From: an uncultured virus (IMG/VR IMGVR_UViG_3300034082_001676)
Lineage: Duplodnaviria; Heunggongvirae; Uroviricota; Caudoviricetes
DNA length: 64,000 nt
Direction: 5' to 3' (one strand)
IMG/VR virus record: IMGVR_UViG_3300034082_001676
Coordinates: 1 to 64,000 of that record
Each line of letters opens with the position of its first letter. Positions within the stretch are counted from its first letter, which is position 1. Under the pieces are notes generated by a model, which saw only the letters and a list, made by a program, of their open reading frames with translations, was not told where the DNA came from and searched no databases. The translations under genes were made by a program, and so were the position numbers. Below, piece by piece: positions 11,226 through 22,122 of this stretch.

Positions 11226-11468
11226 TTAAAACATTTTTTTAGGAAGTTGTTGTTCTCTGAGCTTTTTATTCCAACGTGCTTTGGCTGCGCCAGCTTTGCG
11301 TTTGCGCTCAGTTGTGGGTTTTTCATAAAATTCACGGGCACGTAGTTCTTCCAAAAGTCCACTGTCGTCTATTTTCTTTTTGAATCTTCTTAGAGCTTGA
11401 TTGATATTTTCGTTTTCTTTGACAAAAACGGTATTACCAGTTAGTCTAATTGTATTATTGTTGTTCAT
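11226..11468 (-). CDS. rpsU: Ribosomal protein bS21
   Basis: [17 protein letters not shown]...[13 protein letters not shown]. Confidence 0.93.
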
Positions 11469-11841
11469 AAGTTCCTATTACGGTTTCTAATAATTTGATG
11501 CAGTCATCAATACTATATATAGCCTTTGTATTGACCTTAGCTAGGTTTTTTAGTATCCCAAAATAAGATGAATTACGTTGTGCAGCCATATAACCAGTTA
11601 TTAACTGATTTTCGTGTTCCGCATTAAAGATTATATGGTGACTCTTGTGTTTTTTATCAAACAACCAATCTGGACTACTGTTGTTCCAGATATAAAGAAC
11701 CACCATTGGTAAATTATTGATTTTCGACAATGCTGTAGATAATAATTGTGTTTGGTCAGCGGTAAGATTGACCAGCAACAATCTCACACCATCGTAGGCT
11801 ACGTCATCGGGATCGGTGACCAAAATCACTTTACTGTTCAT
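11455..11841 (-). CDS. Hypothetical protein
   Basis: 128 aa ORF overlapping neighbours in an operon. Confidence 0.65.
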
Positions 11842-13288
11842 CTTTTTTTGCTTTCACACGTTGCCAAAGAGTGGACTTAGTCTGTTCTGCATTTTGAACG
11901 TATTCTACACTTCCTTGGTTTTCTTGATCTGCTGTGTCCCTTGTTTCTCCAACCAGGTCACTGTCTTTTTTTTTAGATTCGTCTGCGAGAACACGTTGTT
12001 CTTCTATCCATTTGGCAGCTTCGCCAGCAGCATCATCGTGATCAGGCTGCGGCCTTAGATAAGATTGCCAGGGTAGTTCTTTGATAACATTACGTTCAAA
12101 AAGTTTTCTCTGAAGTTTCAAACTGCTGTCAGGATGATCTGCTTTCCAACGGGTCATTGCAGATGCTTCACTTTCAGATGCTTGCGCCAATTCATCTTCA
12201 TCAGTGTGCTCTTCTTCTGTCGGTTCCTCAGTTTTATGGACCTGTGGACCCACTCGAAATTCTTCCGGTACTTGACTTACCCACGGTTTTAAAAGATAAG
12301 GATGTTTTTCAAAAATACCCAATTCTCTGTCTTCGACTGATAGTGTTGGTCCTTGAACCGGGAATGGCCATAATGGGCTGCCGGCCGGAATAAAAGGTTC
12401 TGCTTTTATTTTGACATCTTGCTCTGCGGCTTCTTGATCTAATTGACGAGCACGTTCTTTGCCTTGTTCGAACCATTCTTTTACTGCTAACTCGTCGTCT
12501 TCTTCTCGAGCAGTTCGGAACCATTGAAAACTGTATTGACTGGCCAACAACAAGATCACTGCCAGAGGATCAAATACCGCAACAATAATAATGATTACCC
12601 AGGTGACAGCTTTTTCTAATAGATTGGCATCTGGATTGCTTCCGTAAATAAAAGAAGCTATGTATTTTATTGGTCCAACCTCGGCCTCCACTTTTCGAAC
12701 CTCTGCCGCAATAGGTGCTCTCTCACTGTTAAGTGTAGAGATGGTCTTTTGCGATTGAGCAATTTCTTGAGTAATACGGCCGCGATCTTTTTGCTGGGCT
12801 TTACGAATTGCGACTGCTTTTTCGGCACCCTTTTCATCTGTTGAGCGACCCATAACTTGGTCCACTGCCTCATCAAGTTGTTTGAGAACTTTACGATTTG
12901 CATCTATATTTTCTTTTTCTGTTTTGATTTTCTCATCATAGACGGCAATCCTACTTTGTACGTCACCGCTTACAAGACTTTGATCACTATGTGCTTTTGA
13001 TAGGAATCCAAAGATACCCATTGATGTTATCACCATTAGGATAGCAATGGCCGCAATTAGATACGACCTAATAAAAATAGGAGCACGGGCCCAATTTATC
13101 TTGAGCCATACGGTGGCAATTAATTTGCTGACCTCTAACACAACACCCATTACAATAATAGGTATAACTGCGGCCGCAAAGATTGAAACAAGGCCAGCCA
13201 CGCTGTACCAAATTGCCACAGCAGATATAGTTAGTCCGCTTAGAAGAGCCAACCAGGCTATGATTTTATCACTTAGATTTATTTTCAT
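11831..13288 (-). CDS. Membrane protein with coiled-coil and acidic tail
   Basis: Three N-terminal TM segments, long coiled coil, another TM (VFDPLAVILLL), acidic C-terminus; TAAATA 8 nt upstream. Confidence 0.75.
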   Translation of the reverse strand: MKINLSDKIIAWLALLSGLTISAVAIWYSVAGLVSIFAAAVIPIIVMGVVLEVSKLIATVWLKINWARAPIFIRSYLIAAIAILMVITSMGIFGFLSKAHSDQSLVSGDVQSRIAVYDEKIKTEKENIDANRKVLKQLDEAVDQVMGRSTDEKGAEKAVAIRKAQQKDRGRITQEIAQSQKTISTLNSERAPIAAEVRKVEAEVGPIKYIASFIYGSNPDANLLEKAVTWVIIIIVAVFDPLAVILLLASQYSFQWFRTAREEDDELAVKEWFEQGKERARQLDQEAAEQDVKIKAEPFIPAGSPLWPFPVQGPTLSVEDRELGIFEKHPYLLKPWVSQVPEEFRVGPQVHKTEEPTEEEHTDEDELAQASESEASAMTRWKADHPDSSLKLQRKLFERNVIKELPWQSYLRPQPDHDDAAGEAAKWIEEQRVLADESKKKDSDLVGETRDTADQENQGSVEYVQNAEQTKSTLWQRVKAKKDEQ

Positions 13289-13336: not shown

Positions 13337-13672
13337 TTATTTAAAAAATATCAGCGCCATCATTACTGCTTGGACAATAAACCCCAATCCGATAGTAACT
13401 ACATTGAGCATATCTTTTTGCACCGTGGCTTTAACAAACAACAAGGTCAGGCCGCCCCAACATAACAGCACAAGATCCACTGCGGGCATCTTGTCAGTTA
13501 GGCCGCTCATTACTGCAAACAGACTAGGAACAGTAGCAGCGTGTAAGACAATAACTGCCAACCAACCAAATGTTTCTGCTGAAATATGACTGACCTTAGC
13601 CGTAGCCCAAGTTTTAAATTCTTGAAGATTTTCAAATTGGGGTAACGGATTAAATTTATTTAGATTAGCCAT
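13337..13672 (-). CDS. Small 3-TM membrane protein (PQ-loop/SemiSWEET-like or holin-like)
   Basis: Three hydrophobic helices; follows the cell-wall hydrolase; start moved to ATG 13672. Confidence 0.55.
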   Translation of the reverse strand: MANLNKFNPLPQFENLQEFKTWATAKVSHISAETFGWLAVIVLHAATVPSLFAVMSGLTDKMPAVDLVLLCWGGLTLLFVKATVQKDMLNVVTIGLGFIVQAVMMALIFFK

Positions 13673-14219
13673 TTGTTTTCTTTCCTTTGTAAAAGATATG
13701 ATTACCGATTGATCCAATTTTTTCTAAAGGCCAACGAGGATTGACATAGTTAGCATGATAATACAATGCTTCTTTCATTACGTCAAGTCGAAAGCCTTCC
13801 AATAACACTTTCTTGGCCACAGCCATACTTTCATTATAAGCTGATTGGTTAACAGGTCTAGCTTTGTGAGCAGTGTCACAGTACCATGAGAATTGGCAAA
13901 TGACTCTGTCTATCACTACTGACTTTTGAAAAACAACTGCACAGACATCTTTTGGGAACGAAGGATGAGCCGCCCTGTTCATAGTGACCTGTGCTACTGC
14001 TACTTTGCCTTCAAAGTTTTCGTGGCCTGCTTCGCGATAGATATTCATCGCTAGACATTCTAGTTGTCGTTCTCTAGTTTTGATTGACACAATATCAGGC
14101 GATGATAACATCTGACCCTCACGTAGCTTTGCCATTTTGGTCTGAGTAATACTTTGCACCAACATGGCTACTACAACTAAGCCCATAACATAGGCTGTAA
14201 ATCTAAATAACTTTTCCAT
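13665..14219 (-). CDS. SleB-like cell wall hydrolase (Hydrolase_2)
   Basis: CLAMNIYREA, GKVAVAQVTMNR, CQFSW, ALYYHANYVNPRW, IGNHIFY; N-terminal membrane anchor; SD AAGGAGG. Confidence 0.93.
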   Translation of the reverse strand: MEKLFRFTAYVMGLVVVAMLVQSITQTKMAKLREGQMLSSPDIVSIKTRERQLECLAMNIYREAGHENFEGKVAVAQVTMNRAAHPSFPKDVCAVVFQKSVVIDRVICQFSWYCDTAHKARPVNQSAYNESMAVAKKVLLEGFRLDVMKEALYYHANYVNPRWPLEKIGSIGNHIFYKGKKTNG

Positions 14220-14220
14220 A

Positions 14221-14502
14221 AGTCCTCCTTTGACTTGGTGTTGTAAAACTTCTACAACATTACATAAAGGGAGTTAACTTCACGAGGCTCTGACAGAACC
14301 CTACTTTCGTGTAGTTGTCTCCATTAGCCACCACAACTTGTGGTACCTTTGGCGACCCTTGGCATCCCGAAAATACGGGTTTCTCATTGGCCAAGACCCG
14401 CGGACATGATTTTGATGGTATCTCTGTCATGTCAACTATCTCAGTTTCTTTGCGAAACGTTTAATATATACCCCATAGATTCGAAATCTCCCGAGAAACT
14501 GG
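14221..14502 (-). ncRNA. Structured ~280 nt 5' leader, candidate riboswitch/cis-regulatory RNA
   Basis: Stems seen by eye: CAGTTTCT/AGAAACTG, GACATGA/TCATGTC, CGGGT/ACCCG, CCACA/TGTGG, CTAC/GTAG, GGTTC/GAGCC, TGTTGTAG/TTACAACA; GGAG/CTCC closing helix. Confidence 0.6.
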
Positions 14503-14505
14503 TGA

Positions 14506-14898
14506 TTATCGACGCATTTTGGAGATATCTTGTGCTTCTTCGTCCGAAAACACAGGCACCGCATTTGACTTGTGCATAGTGGCAATGCCTTTGACCTTGG
14601 TTCCTGTGTAGACTGGATTAGGTCGCAATACTGCATTGCCACCTGTGTTCACGCTCTTGATGTGAGCAGTACTACGGTCTGCCGGAATGGCAAGACTGTA
14701 ATTTCCCTTGAGTGGTTCTGCAGACAATGCTCGTTTACGCTTCTTGTCTTCAATTTCTACAGCCCATTTCTTCTGTAGTTCTTTCCAACTTTCGTCCAAT
14801 TCTCTAGCCTTTCTAGCGTGTTCAGCTGATGCAAACTTTTGCTTGCCTTTGCGTTTACCTGTGGTACTAAGCCACGGGCCTTCTAAATGCATTGTCAA
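14506..14898 (-). CDS. Basic hypothetical phage protein
   Basis: Ends YTGTKVKGIATMHKSNAVPVFS, a motif typical of T4-like phage hypotheticals; SD GGAGG; start TTG 14898 or ATG 14892. Confidence 0.8.
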   Translation of the reverse strand: MTMHLEGPWLSTTGKRKGKQKFASAEHARKARELDESWKELQKKWAVEIEDKKRKRALSAEPLKGNYSLAIPADRSTAHIKSVNTGGNAVLRPNPVYTGTKVKGIATMHKSNAVPVFSDEEAQDISKMRR

Positions 14899-14969: not shown

Positions 14970-15614
14970 TTACAAATCTATAGTTTCGGGATCTACCAAT
15001 GCCAATTCTTCAAATCCCCAACTCCTTTCCTCGCAAGAATAACATAAATTGCATTTTCCTCTGAGCTGCCGAGAACAAGAATGTGTATATGGTATTATAA
15101 AGTCAGTTCCTAGTTTGTACAATATATCAGTCATGTGTGGTTTAAGTAGATCCAAAAAAGGTTGCTGATACAATGGAGTTTGTTTGTAGACAAAACCTAG
15201 GCTGCCTTTGAATATTTTAATATCCGGCGATGGCATATTGTTTCCGCTCAGATAAATTTGTCCGTTAAACTGTTTGCATGTTTCAGCAACAACATTAGAG
15301 TCCATTCTTCCCTGGCGAATTGCCTCTTCAGTATTAGGAATATTATTCACGTGCAATATGCCAACTTGAAAATGGTCTTCAAACTGCTTTAAAATACGAG
15401 TTGCATACCTTGTCTCGCCTGTTGGTTTTTCTATAGTGAAAGCAGTCAATGATACTGTTTTTAATCGATCAGTCTGATATAGTTCTGTTAAAATTAAAGA
15501 TAACATTGCAGACGAGTCTAAACCGCCCGACATAAAAATTCCAATATTATCTACTTCCGGAATAGTAAAAGTAAACTCGCGTTCTAGGTGTTTAGGTCCA
15601 ATTGTTATTTTCAT
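14970..15614 (-). CDS. QueC-like PP-loop ATPase (adenine nucleotide alpha-hydrolase family)
   Basis: SGGLDS PP-loop; THSC...CNLCYSCEER zinc site. Confidence 0.7.
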   Translation of the reverse strand: MKITIGPKHLEREFTFTIPEVDNIGIFMSGGLDSSAMLSLILTELYQTDRLKTVSLTAFTIEKPTGETRYATRILKQFEDHFQVGILHVNNIPNTEEAIRQGRMDSNVVAETCKQFNGQIYLSGNNMPSPDIKIFKGSLGFVYKQTPLYQQPFLDLLKPHMTDILYKLGTDFIIPYTHSCSRQLRGKCNLCYSCEERSWGFEELALVDPETIDL

Positions 15615-15639
15615 ACTGTGGTTATTTATTAAATACAGA

Positions 15640-16344
15640 ATGACCACTGATCCTAAATTTGCTTTTCCTACTAAACCAAACGACTTTTCATCGTCTTTAA
15701 ATATCGATGTATCAACCGAACATTTAATGTGCGAAATGCAATTAAGTGCAATAGGTTGCTGGGAGCCTTTAGATTTTTTAATTGATCAGTCAATTTGGGA
15801 AGACGACAAGGGTAGGCTTAAAGACCTATGGCGACCGTTCCAGCCAAAAGAAGGAATAACCAACGATAGAGATTCAATTTTATTGTTTGGGTTGAACGGT
15901 GACACTGCAATCAGTCCAACGGGATTGTCGCACGTTCACGCAAAAATAGGTCGTTTTCCAAAAGAAACTGAATTTACCTATCCAACTGATGCTGTTCCTC
16001 TACTACATTCTTGTCAGGAAATTATGGAATTCTTCTCCCCTATGTGTCGTAGTTTTATCATAAGATTAAATGCCGGCGGCTTTTACCCAAGACACAGAGA
16101 TCACTTTTTACTTAATCGTGATACATTTAGGCTTGTTACTTTTTTAGGTAACTCGAGCGATAATTTGGAATGGGAAGTAGAAGGTAATATTAAAACATTT
16201 TTACCAAATACTACCTACTATATCGATACTAGAAAAATGCATAGACTATCGTCGTGGAATCACGGCTCAACTATGATAGTATGGAATGTTCGAAAAACAT
16301 GGGTCAACGTTCTAAAAGTTTTAACACGATTAAAACATAAATGA
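15640..16344 (+). CDS. Putative 2OG-Fe(II) oxygenase (Asp/Asn beta-hydroxylase-like)
   Basis: RLNAGGFYPRHRD (HxD) and YYIDTRKMH (distal His). Confidence 0.65.
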   Translation: MTTDPKFAFPTKPNDFSSSLNIDVSTEHLMCEMQLSAIGCWEPLDFLIDQSIWEDDKGRLKDLWRPFQPKEGITNDRDSILLFGLNGDTAISPTGLSHVHAKIGRFPKETEFTYPTDAVPLLHSCQEIMEFFSPMCRSFIIRLNAGGFYPRHRDHFLLNRDTFRLVTFLGNSSDNLEWEVEGNIKTFLPNTTYYIDTRKMHRLSSWNHGSTMIVWNVRKTWVNVLKVLTRLKHK

Positions 16345-16350
16345 ACAGTA

Positions 16351-16857
16351 TCAGCTGTTCAACACCTTAGCAACTGAATTCATAACTGCCGCGATTCTAC
16401 CAATGTCACGCAGTTGCTCTACACTATAGCCTTCTGTTTTTAGTGTTTCATAATGTGCTTTCACACAGAAGTGACACTTGCCCACAATACTAGCTGCCAA
16501 AGAGAATGCTTCAAAATTTGCCTTAGTAGTTCCGCCGTGACTAGCAATAGCGTTCATGCGTAACTGTGCTGGCAATCCTTTTAGACTAGGATCATCTGCC
16601 ATTTCAACGTAAGGGTACCATACATTGTTCTGTGCCATAATACTAGCGGCTGTCATTGCAGAGTCAGCATGTACTGGAGCATCTGCTAACAACACCGCAA
16701 GCACCTTGCCGTTGCCAGTTGCGGCCAATGCAGCCACAGCACACCCCATAGCCACATCTGCATCTAGTGTACTACGCAAAAGGACAGCGTCCAAGTTTAA
16801 CTTAGTGTCCTTTGCGTATTCTGGTAATACGCCTTTTACTGATTCAATAAAACTCAT
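16351..16857 (-). CDS. ahpD: Alkyl hydroperoxide reductase AhpD
   Basis: LPEYAKDTKLNL, MAQNNVWYPY, SIVGKCHFCVKAH. Confidence 0.92.
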   Translation of the reverse strand: MSFIESVKGVLPEYAKDTKLNLDAVLLRSTLDADVAMGCAVAALAATGNGKVLAVLLADAPVHADSAMTAASIMAQNNVWYPYVEMADDPSLKGLPAQLRMNAIASHGGTTKANFEAFSLAASIVGKCHFCVKAHYETLKTEGYSVEQLRDIGRIAAVMNSVAKVLNS

Positions 16858-16858
16858 T

Positions 16859-17275
16859 TTATGCTACCTCATCTTTCTTATCGCTAGGGAATTTTGCACT
16901 AGTGTATCGAATAACCAATACGCTGATGGCAATAATAAATGTGGAACCAGCCACTGACAGCATCTCAACAATGTTGATGGGCTGGTGACTCATGATGTCT
17001 ACCATGTGCCGGGTCAATGCAGTTATTGCTATGTAAAGTAGAAACCTAACAGGCATATGATTGGTTCTAAAGTAAATCCCAACCATGGCCCCAATTTCCA
17101 AATAGATAAACATTAGCAACAAGTCGGCAACTCCGGCATGGTGCTTCTGGAACATTTCAAAAAACGTCCAGCCAGCGGCCCATACCGTTGCGGCGCCTAT
17201 TCCAAAAAGTGCCAATCGGTGAAAAATATCAACTAAAGTATTTCCAACACGATCAACATTTTTTGTGTTTAACAT
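16859..17275 (-). CDS. psiE: Phosphate-starvation-inducible PsiE-family membrane protein
   Basis: DLLLMFIYLEIGAMVGIYF...MPVRFLLYIAITALTR. Confidence 0.85.
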   Translation of the reverse strand: MLNTKNVDRVGNTLVDIFHRLALFGIGAATVWAAGWTFFEMFQKHHAGVADLLLMFIYLEIGAMVGIYFRTNHMPVRFLLYIAITALTRHMVDIMSHQPINIVEMLSVAGSTFIIAISVLVIRYTSAKFPSDKKDEVA

Positions 17276-17814
17276 TATAGAGTCTCTCCGCCCACTGTAC
17301 GATTACAAGCACAGAGTTCACCTGTTTGTAGCGCATCCAACACACGAAGTGTTTCTTCTGGGCTACGACCAACATTTAAGTTATTGACTGTAACATGCTG
17401 AATCTCGTTGCTTGGATCAACAATGAATGTGGCACGTAATGCCGCACCAGCTGGAGCATAGAACACACCCAGTTGTTCAATCAAGCTCAACTCACCACGC
17501 TGTGTATCAGCAAACTGGTGATGTGTGATTTTCTTCAAATCAGCGTGTGCAGTCTGCCATGCTACTTTACAGAACTCATTATCTGTTGAACCTGTTAGCA
17601 GGACTGCATCACGGTCAGCAAAGTCTTGTGTCAACTTGTCGTAGGCCACAATCTCTGTTGGGCAAACAAATGTAAAGTCTTTTGGATAGTAAACGATTAC
17701 TTTCCACTTGCCTTCGAAACTATTTTCTGTAATAGTGTAGAACGCATCTTCTGGTTGTCCTGGCTTGACACCTGTAATTGCGAATGGGGCTAATTTATCT
17801 CCAACTGTTTTCAT
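17275..17814 (-). CDS. ahpC: Peroxiredoxin AhpC
   Basis: YPKDFTFVCPTE, GRSPEETLRVLDALQTGELC; start moved to ATG 17814 after AAGGAG. Confidence 0.95.
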   Translation of the reverse strand: MKTVGDKLAPFAITGVKPGQPEDAFYTITENSFEGKWKVIVYYPKDFTFVCPTEIVAYDKLTQDFADRDAVLLTGSTDNEFCKVAWQTAHADLKKITHHQFADTQRGELSLIEQLGVFYAPAGAALRATFIVDPSNEIQHVTVNNLNVGRSPEETLRVLDALQTGELCACNRTVGGETL

Positions 17815-17939
17815 GCTTATATCTCCTTGTGTGTGAATGAAACAATAATTATTGTACATTTATTTACGCTATAAATCAATGGTTTTCCATTAGTTTTGAC
17901 TAATATTTTTTAATGGCACTAATAGGAAGAACTAATAAT

Positions 17940-21430: not shown

Positions 21431-21454
21431 AAAGAAAACCCGCCGAAGCGGGTT
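21431..21454 (-). terminator. Intrinsic terminator of tmRNA
   Basis: AACCCGC-TTCG-GCGGGTT-TTCTTT. Confidence 0.85.
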
Positions 21455-21801
21455 CCGAGTTTCTGTTACGAGGTATGTCTTACCCTAAGCTGAGTTTAGG
21501 CAGCTAATGCGAACTTTGAGTCGTTTGCGGTTACTTTTTTGTGTCTTCGACCGGGAGACCCCAATCCTAACGGCTTCTACATTGCCGAGCTGTCCACTCT
21601 GTTACTCTTTGCCCAATCGATCCTGTGTCAGGCCCATCAGAAAAACACTTATGTCTTGTTAAACCTTTACCTGGTGCCCAACTAAATCTATTAAAACAAC
21701 TTGGGCACAATGCGGTGTACTTCATAAATATCCTTTTGGTGGACCTGGCGGGCACTGCCCCCGCGTCTTGAACTTATTTCTCATCGCTTCATACAGCAAT
21801 A
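21435..21801 (-). ncRNA. ssrA: Circularly permuted (two-piece) tmRNA
   Basis: Acceptor piece ending CAGGTCCACCA (CCA end at 21737) precedes coding piece starting GGGCCTG (21635); G3-U alanine pair; tag frame 21528-21496 encodes ANDSKFALAA*; TAAATA at 21807-21812; 5' end approximate. Confidence 0.92.
21567..21725 (-). CDS. Possible 52 aa CxxC...HxC peptide starting in the tmRNA intervening segment
   Basis: AAAGGA SD then ATG; MKYTALCPSCFNRFSWAPGKGLTRHKCFS...; 3' half overlaps the tmRNA coding piece. Confidence 0.35.
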   Translation of the reverse strand: MKYTALCPSCFNRFSWAPGKGLTRHKCFSDGPDTGSIGQRVTEWTARQCRSR

Positions 21802-21813
21802 ACTTATATTTAA

Positions 21814-22122
21814 CTACATTTTAACAGTTAAGTCAATGTCTTCTTGTTGCTTTTGGACTTCTTTCATAGGACGAATAGGTTCTAACCAGGAATCTGGAAT
21901 GTAGGCCTTTGGAGTATCTCCGTACATATTACTCAATCCAAATTCTGTGGCTATCCACCAAAAGTGATCTGTAATAGCAGCCTTGCAGGCAATTCCCTTA
22001 AACTGAAATTCCTCACCTTGCGTAAAATGTCCCACATACTCATCCACCAACACAGTTTTGCCTATGTTGGTAGGCCGTATGCTCATGATAATTTTGGCAA
22101 GATCGCCTTGTTCACATTTCAT
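21814..22122 (-). CDS. Hypothetical phage protein
   Basis: 102 aa ORF; GDLAKII...IPDSWLEPIRP. Confidence 0.75.
   Translation of the reverse strand: MKCEQGDLAKIIMSIRPTNIGKTVLVDEYVGHFTQGEEFQFKGIACKAAITDHFWWIATEFGLSNMYGDTPKAYIPDSWLEPIRPMKEVQKQQEDIDLTVKM

What the first reader, a model, noticed from the sequence alone, without database searches (positions are those of the whole stretch)
14221..14502. Riboswitch-like leader with an apparent expression platform upstream of a cell-wall hydrolase
Seen: ~280 nt non-coding gap, rare in this genome, with at least seven stems. The 3' domain reads GGAG-ACAA-CUAC-ACGAAA-GUAG-GGUUCU-GUCA-GAGCC-UCGUG-AAGUUAA-CUCC; CACGA can pair with UCGUG (pseudoknot). CUCC(C)UUU can pair either with the upstream GGAG (14319-14322) or with the SD AAAGGAG across an intervening hairpin. 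Established: c-di-AMP (ydaO) riboswitches contain GUAGGG...AGCUAAC elements and often control wall hydrolases. Inference: a variant or new ligand-sensing translational switch timing a lysis/wall-remodelling enzyme.
Basis: partly seen in the sequence, partly recalled or inferred. Interest (0 to 1): 0.72.

Follow-up and report, generated by a model that had tools for sequence, protein, structure and literature searches.

The report
Structured leader RNA before phage endolysin
A roughly 250-base folded RNA that matches no catalogued RNA family sits in front of the cell-wall-cutting (lysis) gene of a group of very large freshwater phages and probably controls when that enzyme is made.

Summary
The gap is real. 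It spans 14220-14505 on the minus strand, between a gene of unknown function and a SleB-type endolysin gene (13665-14219) of a huge-phage fragment. It holds a conserved, structured RNA of about 250 nt (14470-14220).

- **Spread:** the same element lies directly upstream of SleB homologues in more than 200 viral and metagenome loci (137 distinct 3'-domain sequences). It stays 78% identical where the protein has fallen to 39%.
- **Structure:** three hairpins (P2, P5, P7) covary strongly. P1, P3-P4, P6 and the linkers are nearly invariant.
- **Possible switch:** an invariant CUCC can pair with an upstream GGAG (closing P6) or with the Shine-Dalgarno GGAG. Folding predicts competition, with the SD-free state usually favoured.
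- **Family:** no Rfam family matches, ydaO/c-di-AMP included, in the window or in 20 homologues.
- **Distribution:** one copy per genome, always before sleB, absent from 80 candidate sites in prokaryote genomes and from GenBank phages.

Verdict: a new family of cis-acting mRNA leader, most likely a translational switch for a lysis enzyme. The trigger (small molecule, protein or none) is unknown.

The parts
14462..14470 (-). TATATATTA box. TATATA is invariant. It is either a -10-type (late-promoter-like) element placed 5-7 nt before the conserved ACG, or the 5' strand of a possible long-range helix (UAUAU with AUGUA at about 14265-14261).
   Evidence: TATATA is invariant in 56 of 56 homologues, and the sequence upstream of it is not conserved. 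UAUAU:AUGUA complementarity is present in at least 54 of 56. RNTATATAW is twofold enriched in the window (23 matches against 11.9 +/- 3.7), but the sites are not clearly upstream of genes.
14444..14458 (-). P1 hairpin GUUUC-GCAAA-GAAAC, with a GNRA-like loop.
   Evidence: 100% of cells paired. The one variant is C:G to U:G.
14402..14434 (-). P2, a hairpin that varies in sequence and length.
   Evidence: 47 distinct versions among 56 sequences, all folding as hairpins. 4 of its 5 basal pairs show changes on both sides.
14352..14401 (-). P3-P4 domain: P3 helix (14401-14389 with 14363-14352), a conserved asymmetric internal loop AAUGAGAAA (14388-14380), and the P4 hairpin CCCG...CGGG (14379-14366).
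   Evidence: The same fold appears in all 19 distinct versions (55 of 56 sequences; L104 carries a deletion). The 3' strand varies (GGGUCGC, GGCUC, GCUCGC, GUUCGC, GCUUGC) while staying complementary to the near-invariant 5' strand.
14326..14346 (-). P5 hairpin. In most relatives its loop is the conserved GUUAUGAG. The window's copy lacks 7 nt of that loop.
   Evidence: 28 distinct versions, all hairpins. All 3 upper pairs show changes on both sides. Relatives carry a 7-nt insertion at 14334 relative to the window.
14270..14322 (-). P6, a long irregular hairpin: GGAG (14322-14319) / AACU / CACG / variable 6-7-nt bulge / GGGUUC-loop-GAGCCU / CGUG / AGUU / CUCC (14273-14270).
   Evidence: 98-100% of cells paired and almost no variation. 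Among 137 distinct sequences, the rare P6d variants preserve pairing 10 times and break it 3 times, including one C:G to A:U double change. The invariant G:U and U:G pairs fix the strand.
14264..14273 (-). Anti-SD CUCCCUUUAU. It is shared between P6a and the SD-sequestering helix.
   Evidence: CUCC:GGAG(SD) is complementary in 127 of 127 sequences with letters at both sides. CUCC:GGAG(P6a) is complementary in 133-134 of 134. The helix is 98.8% paired in the alignment.
14239..14259 (-). P7, a variable hairpin between the anti-SD and the SD.
   Evidence: 5 of 7 pairs show changes on both sides.
14217..14231 (-). Shine-Dalgarno AAAGGAGG (14231-14224) and the sleB start codon (14219-14217).
   Evidence: Read from the sequence. 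The SD core is invariant in the homologues.
13665..14219 (-). SleB-type cell-wall hydrolase (endolysin) with an N-terminal hydrophobic segment. This is the regulated gene.
   Evidence: Pfam Hydrolase_2; PHROG endolysin. 108 of 109 ORFs downstream of pattern matches are SleB homologues, and the one exception is a chance match.

Best explanation
The gap encodes the 5' leader of the endolysin (sleB) mRNA. It is a new, single-copy family of structured cis-acting RNA, about 250 nt long, found in one clade of huge freshwater phages.

The leader is a string of helices: P1, P2, P3-P4, P5, P6 and P7. At its 3' end it carries a three-part device: an anti-anti-SD GGAG (14322-14319), an anti-SD CUCCCUU (14273-14267) and the SD AAAGGAGG (14231-14224). 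When P6 is closed, CUCC is held by the upstream GGAG and the SD is free, so translation is on. When P6a opens, CUCCCUU pairs with the SD across P7 and blocks ribosome binding, so translation is off.

The near-invariant P1, P3-P4 and P6 parts and the linkers are inferred to form the sensor, or binding site, that sets this balance and so tunes or times endolysin synthesis. The trigger (small molecule, protein or RNA) is not known.

- Shown: the conservation, the helices, the strand, the gene linkage and the complementarity.
- Inferred: the switching itself and its effect on translation.
For: - **Conservation beyond the protein:** the leader is 78% identical over 224 nt in L056, whose SleB is only 39% identical.
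- **Gene linkage, 3' domain:** of 120 IMG/VR matches to a 3'-domain pattern, 113 are leaders and 7 are GC-rich chance matches. Of the 113, 108 are followed at a fixed distance by a SleB ORF, 2 run off a contig end, 2 are interrupted by an IS, and 1 has a deletion.
- **Gene linkage, 5' domain:** of 120 metagenome matches to a 5'-domain pattern, 106 of the 106 with enough sequence also hold the 3' domain.
- **Covariation:** 41 pairs, 96.8% of cells paired, 12 pairs and 219 cells with changes on both sides. 0 of 500 shuffles reach the count of cells changed on both sides or the covariation score, and 1 of 500 reaches the count of pairs. Slid controls give 38-49% paired.
- **P3-P4:** the fold is kept in 19 of 19 distinct versions.
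- **Strand:** invariant G:U pairs in P6d, and many G:U pairs in P2, P3 and P7, would be A-C mismatches on the other strand.
- **Not coding, not a separate transcript:** no conserved ORF and no terminator before sleB.
- **Both pairings possible everywhere:** CUCC pairs with either GGAG in every sequence with letters there, except one row in one P6a pair.
- **Predicted competition:** mean probability 0.68 for GGAG:CUCC and 0.25 for the anti-SD:SD helix. The on state exceeds 0.5 in 42 of 56 sequences and the off state in 9 of 56. In the isolated 3' domain the two states differ by 2.8 +/- 1.9 kcal/mol.
- **Copy number:** one copy in a 98%-complete 353-kb genome.
Against: - The switch helices (P6a and anti-SD:SD) never vary, so covariation gives no support for either. 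Their invariance could have other causes.
- Folding favours the SD-free state in most members (window: 0.95 against 0.02). P3 is very stable on its own, at about -20 kcal/mol. The RNA may therefore be constitutively on and not a switch at all.
- Three natural variants lack the 5' domain (L119, L157, L175) and one lacks part of P3 (L104). The window itself lacks the conserved P5 loop. Much of the leader can evidently be lost.
- 70 of 80 SleB loci from related phages have no such leader, including 6 with the same upstream gene directly before sleB. The leader is not needed for sleB expression in general.
- No transcript ends are known. RNA-library contigs cover the region but break at the boundaries of conservation, and they could come from DNA.
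Confidence: 0.6

Rival explanations
1. It is a new class of metabolite- or ion-binding riboswitch. The invariant P1/P3-P4/P6 core binds a small molecule of the infected cell, and binding shifts the GGAG/CUCC/SD balance. This is a narrower version of the best explanation.
For: - It has the typical anatomy: variable, covarying peripheral hairpins around invariant helices and about 60 conserved unpaired nucleotides in loops and linkers.
- An expression platform overlaps the conserved core.
- No known family matches it.
- A GNRA-like loop on P1 suggests tertiary docking. That reading is an inference.
Against: - It is tied to a single gene and occurs once per genome, unlike most riboswitch classes.
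- No multi-helix junction or pseudoknot is shown.
- The 5' domain is lost in natural variants.
- No ligand is suggested by the context beyond speculation: wall fragments, cyclic dinucleotides, or 7-deazaguanine precursors because a QueC-like gene lies two genes upstream.
Confidence: 0.25
2. It is a protein-responsive leader. A phage or host RNA-binding protein recognises the invariant helices and the repeated AUGAGA / AUGGAGA / GA(A/G)AC motifs, and represses or activates sleB translation, as with T4 RegA or gp32 operators or ribosomal-protein leaders. This too is a narrower version of the best explanation.
For: - Helices kept at the level of sequence on both strands fit base-specific recognition.
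- Short purine motifs recur in single-stranded parts: J1/2, J3/4, the P4 loop, the P5 loop and J5/6.
- The single-gene, single-copy distribution is typical of dedicated operators.
Against: - No candidate protein was identified.
- The adjacent basic 130-aa protein also occurs directly upstream of sleB in 6 loci that have no leader.
- The J3/4 motif varies (AUGAG, AUUGG, AUUAG).
- 250 nt is large for an operator.
Confidence: 0.25
3. It is a structural leader without switching. It would serve as a 5' stabiliser, a processing site (for example RNase III on the long P3 and P6 helices), or a translation enhancer that keeps the SD open.
For: - The SD-free state is predicted to dominate.
- P1 would lie within a few nucleotides of the 5' end if TATATA is the promoter. 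This is an inference.
- P3 and P6 are long irregular helices.
Against: - Simple stabilisers and RNase III sites tolerate covariation, yet P3, P6 and the linkers are invariant while neighbouring hairpins vary freely.
- An invariant anti-SD would have no purpose.
Confidence: 0.15
4. It is a T4 gene-e-type device. The SD is occluded only in read-through transcripts from upstream, and a late promoter inside the leader gives transcripts that lack the inhibitory strand.
For: - T4 lysozyme is controlled in this way (PMC3014915, passages of section 29 read).
- SD occlusion by CUCCCUU is possible.
- The TATATA box could pair with AUGUA only in read-through transcripts.
Against: - The only conserved promoter-like box lies about 190 nt upstream of the anti-SD, so transcripts from it still contain the anti-SD.
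- No conserved promoter-like element was seen between the anti-SD and the SD.
- This model does not explain 200 nt of invariant structure.
Confidence: 0.05
5. It is a variant ydaO/c-di-AMP riboswitch.
For: - ydaO RNAs are associated with cell-wall remodelling genes (PMC7266159, passages of section 11 read).
- The window's copy contains GUAGGG.
Against: - No match to RF00379 or to any other family at E <= 10 in the window or in 20 homologues.
- GUAG is replaced in 37 of 56 homologues.
- It is linked to a single gene.
Confidence: 0.02
6. It is a stand-alone small RNA, an antisense RNA or a small protein gene, unrelated to sleB translation.
For: - The plus strand also folds below shuffles (z -2.61).
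- ORFs of 30-85 aa occur in every copy.
Against: - G:U pairs fix the minus strand.
- There is no terminator before sleB.
- The spacing to the SD is fixed in 108 loci.
- The ORFs differ in strand, frame and length, and helix-length changes are not multiples of three.
Confidence: 0.05

Closest known systems
ydaO-yuaA (c-di-AMP) riboswitch, Rfam RF00379
   Same: A structured leader upstream of a cell-wall hydrolase gene. ydaO RNAs are linked to cell-wall remodelling genes (PMC7266159, passages read).
   Different: - No covariance-model match.
- One gene type only, in phages only.
- The architecture is a string of hairpins.
T4 gene e (lysozyme) leader and related SD-occluding structures of T4 soc, 49 and I-TevI
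   Same: A phage endolysin whose SD can be sequestered by an upstream complementary strand. Control of lysis-enzyme translation by mRNA structure (PMC3014915, section 29 passages).
   Different: - T4 uses a short hairpin, and relief comes from a late promoter inside it.
- Here a 250-nt invariant multi-helix RNA precedes the anti-SD.
- A third element (the upstream GGAG) competes for the anti-SD.
- No internal promoter was found.
Translational operators bound by proteins (T4 RegA and gp32, ribosomal-protein leaders)
   Same: Single-gene, single-copy cis elements overlapping the ribosome-binding region, with sequence-level conservation. The comparison itself rests on recalled knowledge.
   Different: It is much larger and more elaborate. 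No partner protein has been identified.
Orphan structured RNAs of phages and metagenomes (for example GOLLD, ROOL and the motifs of the large comparative screens)
   Same: Known only from comparative analysis of uncultured sequence. Phage-borne. Function unknown. The family names are recalled; they would have been found by the Rfam scans if this RNA were one of them.
   Different: No Rfam match. This one has a clear cis link to one gene and an SD/anti-SD device.

Membership tests
ydaO/c-di-AMP riboswitch (RF00379) | Match to the family covariance model | tested here: not met
   No match at the gathering score in the window. None at E <= 10 in 14100-14650. None in 20 homologous leaders.
ydaO/c-di-AMP riboswitch (RF00379) | Conservation of the quoted GUAGGG-type element among homologues | tested here: not met
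   The GU before AGGG is present in 19 of 56 homologues. The rest have CC, UC, UA or CA.
ydaO/c-di-AMP riboswitch (RF00379) | Association with a broad set of genes (transporters, osmotic and wall genes) | tested here: not met
   Found only upstream of sleB: 108 of 108 readable downstream ORFs of true members. The gene set of ydaO is taken from PMC7266159.
ydaO/c-di-AMP riboswitch (RF00379) | Binding of c-di-AMP | not testable with these tools
   Needs in-line probing or calorimetry.
Riboswitch (generic: ligand-binding cis-regulatory mRNA domain) | Conserved structured domain supported by covariation | tested here: met
   12 pairs and 219 cells with changes on both sides. 0 of 500 shuffles reach the cell count or the covariation score, and 1 of 500 reaches the pair count. 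The covariation is confined to P2, P5 and P7.
Riboswitch (generic: ligand-binding cis-regulatory mRNA domain) | Expression platform with mutually exclusive pairings that involve the SD | tested here: inconclusive
   Both pairings of CUCC are possible in all members, and folding predicts that they compete. All partners are invariant, so covariation gives no test.
Riboswitch (generic: ligand-binding cis-regulatory mRNA domain) | Direct, selective ligand binding that changes the fold | not testable with these tools
   No biochemical tool is available here.
T4 gene-e-type promoter-dependent SD occlusion | SD paired with an upstream strand | tested here: met
   In the anti-SD:SD helix, 98.8% of cells are paired. 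This shows complementarity only.
T4 gene-e-type promoter-dependent SD occlusion | Late promoter within or just downstream of the inhibitory 5' strand, so that late transcripts lack it | tested here: not met
   The only conserved promoter-like box (TATATA, 14470-14465) lies upstream of the whole leader. The one sigma-70-like site inside (14435-14406) lies in the non-conserved P2.
Any Rfam 15 family | Covariance-model match | tested here: not met
   The only real hits in the window are tmRNA models at 21451-21840.

The most novel reading that the evidence does not exclude
The leader is a new riboswitch class carried only by huge phages. It reads a small molecule of the infected cell (for example a nucleotide messenger, a cell-wall fragment or a phage-made 7-deazaguanine precursor) to gate translation of the endolysin, and so couples the lysis enzyme to the chemical state of the cell. 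It would be the first metabolite-sensing RNA dedicated to a phage lysis gene.
Probability: 0.25. Interest if true: 0.85.

Novelty: new variant of a known kind. Interest (0 to 1): 0.66.

Why it matters
Phage lysis timing is usually explained by holins and promoters. RNA-level control of the endolysin is known mainly from the simple T4 gene e hairpin.

Here a large RNA, conserved at the level of sequence, with the anatomy of a sensor is fused to the ribosome-binding site of a lysis enzyme in uncultured phages of about 350 kb. It adds a well-defined orphan to the list of riboswitch or regulator candidates. There are now 137 distinct sequences, a working secondary structure and clear mutational tests.

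If a ligand or a partner protein is found, it would reveal what these phages monitor before committing to wall degradation. The element is also a specific marker for this phage clade in freshwater data.

Tried and rejected
- **Rfam:** whole window at gathering scores, the region at E <= 10 and 20 homologous leaders at E <= 10. Only unrelated miRNA, snoRNA and sRNA noise came back.
- **tRNA or tmRNA in the gap:** none.
- **GenBank phages:** blastn 'distant' found no match in 50,697 records.
- **Prokaryote genomes:** 80 exact pattern matches. None scores with the 3'-domain model; the best was a partial match of 13.8 bits, E 0.16.
- **More copies in the same genome:** none in five phage records. 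Two weak hits (E 0.1 and 0.6) in one record were disregarded.
- **16S rRNA 3'-end mimicry** (an idea raised by CUCCCUUU, GUAGGG and GUGAAGU): local alignment scores of four leaders against an alphaproteobacterial 16S lie within the shuffles for three (130-195 of 200 shuffles as high). The fourth (L056: 9 of 200) aligns only its non-conserved P7. Rejected.
- **Small ORF or uORF:** no ORF is conserved in strand, frame or length.
- **Antisense function:** rejected because of the G:U pairs.
- **Transcript ends from RNA libraries:** 24 runs listed, 23 of them recorded as RNA and most labelled freshwater or lake, at shares of 0.05-0.15. The four laid (three labelled freshwater, one lake water; four studies) give contigs over the leader and both neighbours. 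Contigs end at 14470 in two studies, but that is also where conservation ends, and DNA carry-over cannot be excluded. This gives no information on the start site.
- **TATATA as a general promoter of this phage:** the motif is twofold enriched, but only about 5 of 29 sites lie within 80 nt upstream of a same-strand ORF start. Left open.
- **Alternative long-range pairings:** GAGUCUUG with CAGGGUUC, AUGAG with CUCGU, AACCC with GGGUU, GUCUU with GAGAC. All are conserved only because both sides are invariant. The J3/4 variants AUUGG and AUUAG weaken AUGAG:CUCGU. None was adopted.
- **Search with the most divergent SleB (L056) for more distant leaders:** it found only itself.
- **Earlier notes of this scan:** none on this sequence or genome.
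- **Literature:** four full-text searches listed no paper describing an RNA element upstream of phage sleB or endolysin genes of this kind. Only the listings and abstract starts were seen. Subscription journals are not covered.

Full report
**What the window is.** The window is the first 64 kb of a 72.6-kb IMG/VR virus record that CheckV rates 20% complete. Its relatives reach 349-353 kb, so this is a fragment of a huge phage. The hydrolase of the finding lies on the minus strand (13665..14219, 184 aa). It matches Pfam Hydrolase_2, the SleB type (E 1.3e-24), and the PHROG 'endolysin' family phrog_938 (E 7.7e-21). It has a hydrophobic N-terminal segment (translation). The gene upstream (14506..14898, 130 aa, basic) belongs to a PHROG of unknown function. 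The finding is therefore the 286-nt gap 14220-14505, read on the minus strand.

- The quoted sequence is correct.
- The minus-strand RNA folds 16 kcal/mol below its shuffles (z -3.16; 0 of 100 shuffles as good).
- Gaps of this size are uncommon. Only 3 gaps in a crude map of 94 ORFs are longer.
- No tRNA or tmRNA lies in the gap.
- No terminator-like site separates it from sleB.
- The longest ORFs inside differ in strand, frame and length among homologues (30-85 aa), and the helix-length differences are not multiples of three.

**Conservation.** Among 80 loci fetched with the SleB protein, 10 carry the same upstream sequence. One is L056, where the leader is 78% identical over 224 nt although the protein is only 39% identical.

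I then scanned IMG/VR with an exact pattern taken from the 3' domain.
- 7 are GC-rich coding chance matches.
- 113 are leaders.
- 108 of the 113 are followed, 54-79 nt after the end of the pattern match, by an ORF that phmmer identifies as SleB.
- 2 run off a contig end.
- 2 (identical sequence) are interrupted by an IS200/IS605 element.
- 1 has a deletion that fuses the leader to the middle of sleB.

A pattern from the 5' domain returned 120 metagenome stretches, again the cap. All 106 with enough downstream sequence also hold the 3' domain. The other 14 end within 73 nt of the match. So the two halves were never found apart, except in a few deletion variants that keep only the 3' half (L119, L157, L175, described below).

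Over everything fetched there are 235 matches to the 3'-domain profile and 137 distinct sequences.

The element is absent from:
- 50,697 GenBank phage records at blastn sensitivity;
- the 80 pattern matches found in 596 Gb of prokaryote genomes;
- 70 of the 80 SleB loci, including 6 with the same upstream gene directly before sleB.

It occurs once in a 98%-complete 353-kb genome and not at all in a 97%-complete 349-kb relative.

**Structure.** I aligned 56 leaders that are less than 96% identical to one another (A3) and their 3' halves (A4). The RNA reads, from 5' to 3':
- an invariant TATATA box (14470-14465);
- P1, GUUUC-GCAAA-GAAAC (14458-14444);
- the linker CU(A/G)AGAUAGU;
- P2, a hairpin with 47 distinct versions;
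- P3-P4, a helix of 11-12 bp, the internal loop (A/U)AUGAGAAA and the hairpin CCCG/CGGG, with the same fold in all 19 distinct versions (55 of 56 sequences);
- the linker CCAAAGG;
- P5, with 28 distinct stems and a conserved GUUAUGAG loop that the window's copy has lost through a 7-nt deletion;
- CUCCCUU(U/A)AUGUAAUGU;
- P7, a variable hairpin;
- ACACCAA(G/A)U(C/G)AAAGGAGG and the start codon.

On the named structure (41 pairs) 96.8% of cells are paired. 12 pairs and 219 cells have changes on both sides. 0 of 500 shuffles reach the cell count or the covariation score, and 1 of 500 reaches the pair count. Partners slid by 1-3 columns give 38-49% paired.

All of this covariation sits in P2, upper P5 and P7. 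P1, P6 and the anti-SD helix hardly vary. Among the 137 distinct sequences, the rare changes in P6d preserve pairing 10 times, including one C:G to A:U double change, and break it 3 times.

Invariant G:U and U:G pairs in P6d, and frequent G:U pairs in P2, P3 and P7, fix the functional strand as the sleB sense strand.

It is unpaired in 29-30 of 53 distinct rows at two of its four pairs, because GUAG is CCAG, GUCA or similar in most members. CACG/CGUG is then a nested part of P6 rather than a pseudoknot.

**The possible switch.** CUCC (14273-14270) is complementary both to GGAG at 14322-14319 (P6a) and to the SD GGAG. Both complementarities hold in essentially every sequence: 133-134 of 134, and 127 of 127, with letters at both sides.
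- With the 3' domain alone, forcing P6a gives a lower energy than forcing anti-SD:SD in 55 of 56 sequences, by 2.8 +/- 1.9 kcal/mol on average.
- In partition functions of the whole leader plus 30 nt of coding sequence, the mean probabilities are 0.68 for P6a and 0.25 for anti-SD:SD.
- 42 of 56 sequences favour the on state and 9 of 56 the off state.
- The window's copy is strongly on (0.95 against 0.02; SD unpaired 0.92).

The two states are thus close enough to be switchable, but the predicted default is SD-free. Because all three partners are invariant, comparative data cannot show that switching occurs.

Other conserved complementarities exist, for example P3's GUCUU with GAGAC of P6a, and the TATATA box with AUGUA next to the anti-SD. 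They are equally untestable.

One oddity: the two positions that face each other in the off helix (U/A after CCCUU, and C/G before AAAGG) co-occur as U with C or A with G in 50 of 56 sequences. These are not Watson-Crick pairs, and I have no explanation.

**What it is not.**
- No Rfam 15 family matches the window at gathering scores. The only hits are tmRNA at 21451-21840.
- The region gives nothing relevant at E <= 10, and neither do 20 homologous leaders at E <= 10. ydaO membership is therefore not supported.
- A resemblance to the 3' end of 16S rRNA did not survive alignment against shuffles.
- The T4 gene e model is SD occlusion relieved by a late promoter inside the hairpin (PMC3014915, passages of section 29). 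It fits poorly because the only conserved promoter-like box lies upstream of the entire leader.

**What can be said about function.**
- The leader is in cis with one gene, an endolysin. A small multi-pass membrane protein follows sleB in 8 of 10 leader-bearing loci and 40 of 70 leader-less loci. That fits a lysis cassette, though calling the membrane protein a holin is inference.
- Near-total sequence invariance of P1, P3-P4, P6 and about 60 unpaired nucleotides, next to freely covarying hairpins, argues for a specific tertiary fold or a specific partner. It argues against a generic stabilising structure.
- On the other side, natural variants lack the 5' domain (L119, L157, L175), part of P3 (L104) or the P5 loop (the window). 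Many relatives do without the leader altogether.

I therefore commit to a cis-acting translational control element built on the GGAG/CUCC/SD triad (confidence 0.6). The trigger is undecided: about equal odds for a small molecule and a protein, and a smaller chance that it is a constitutive structural leader.

**Expression data.** 23 of the 24 runs listed are on record as RNA, and most are labelled freshwater or lake; they share 5-15% of sampled words with the stretch. I laid four of them (three labelled freshwater, one lake water; four studies). Their contigs are 85-99% alike and cover the leader and both flanking genes. Contig ends at 14470 in two studies coincide with the boundary of conservation, so they do not define a start site. 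DNA in these libraries cannot be excluded.

**Novelty.** No catalogue entry (Rfam), no cultured phage and no paper found in four full-text searches (listings and abstract starts only) describes it. The principle of an SD-sequestering structured leader is known. The family, its size, and its dedication to a lysis enzyme of huge phages are new.

Noticed in passing
window 21451-21840 (-): A permuted (alpha-type) tmRNA gene carried by the phage (Rfam RF04321, 102 bits; RF01849, 72.6 bits). ARAGORN did not report it.
   Followed up: no
window 11226-11468 (-): A phage-encoded ribosomal protein S21 (Pfam E 4.2e-19). It lies on the same strand, four genes downstream of sleB. Whether it shares a transcript with the leader is unknown.
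   Followed up: partly
window 16351-17859 (-): Host-like stress genes in a row: a CMD/AhpD-like protein, a PsiE-family membrane protein and an AhpC/TSA peroxiredoxin.
   Followed up: partly
window 14970-15647 (-): A QueC-like protein (Pfam QueC C-terminal match E 3.8e-7; PHROG 'QueC-like queuosine biosynthesis') two genes upstream of the leader. It hints at 7-deazaguanine chemistry in this phage.
   Followed up: no
L100 1-1500 (and the identical L127): An IS200/IS605 element (Y1 transposase and an OrfB/TnpB-type protein) is inserted in the leader just after the 5' half of P7. It separates the leader from the SD and sleB.
   Followed up: partly
L119, L157, L175, L104, L187: Natural deletion variants. 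Three lack most of the 5' domain but keep P6-P7-SD. One lacks the P3 5' strand. One is fused to the middle of sleB, losing the SD and the N-terminal segment.
   Followed up: partly
window 14334: The window's copy lacks 7 nt (the conserved P5 loop) that relatives and RNA-library contigs carry.
   Followed up: yes
window 14267 and 14232 (A4 columns 70 and 120): Two positions that face each other in the SD-sequestering helix co-occur as U with C (17) or A with G (33) in 50 of 56 leaders. These are not standard pairs. Unexplained.
   Followed up: partly
window 11831-13288 (-): A 485-aa protein with N-terminal membrane helices and a coiled-coil, acidic tail is found beside sleB in 9 of 10 leader-bearing loci but in only 3 of 70 leader-less ones. 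This may simply mark the clade.
   Followed up: partly
L014-L022, about 120 nt upstream of sleB: Leader-less SleB loci share a different, shorter upstream pattern: the end of another gene, then an A/T-rich stretch and a small hairpin before the SD. Not analysed.
   Followed up: no
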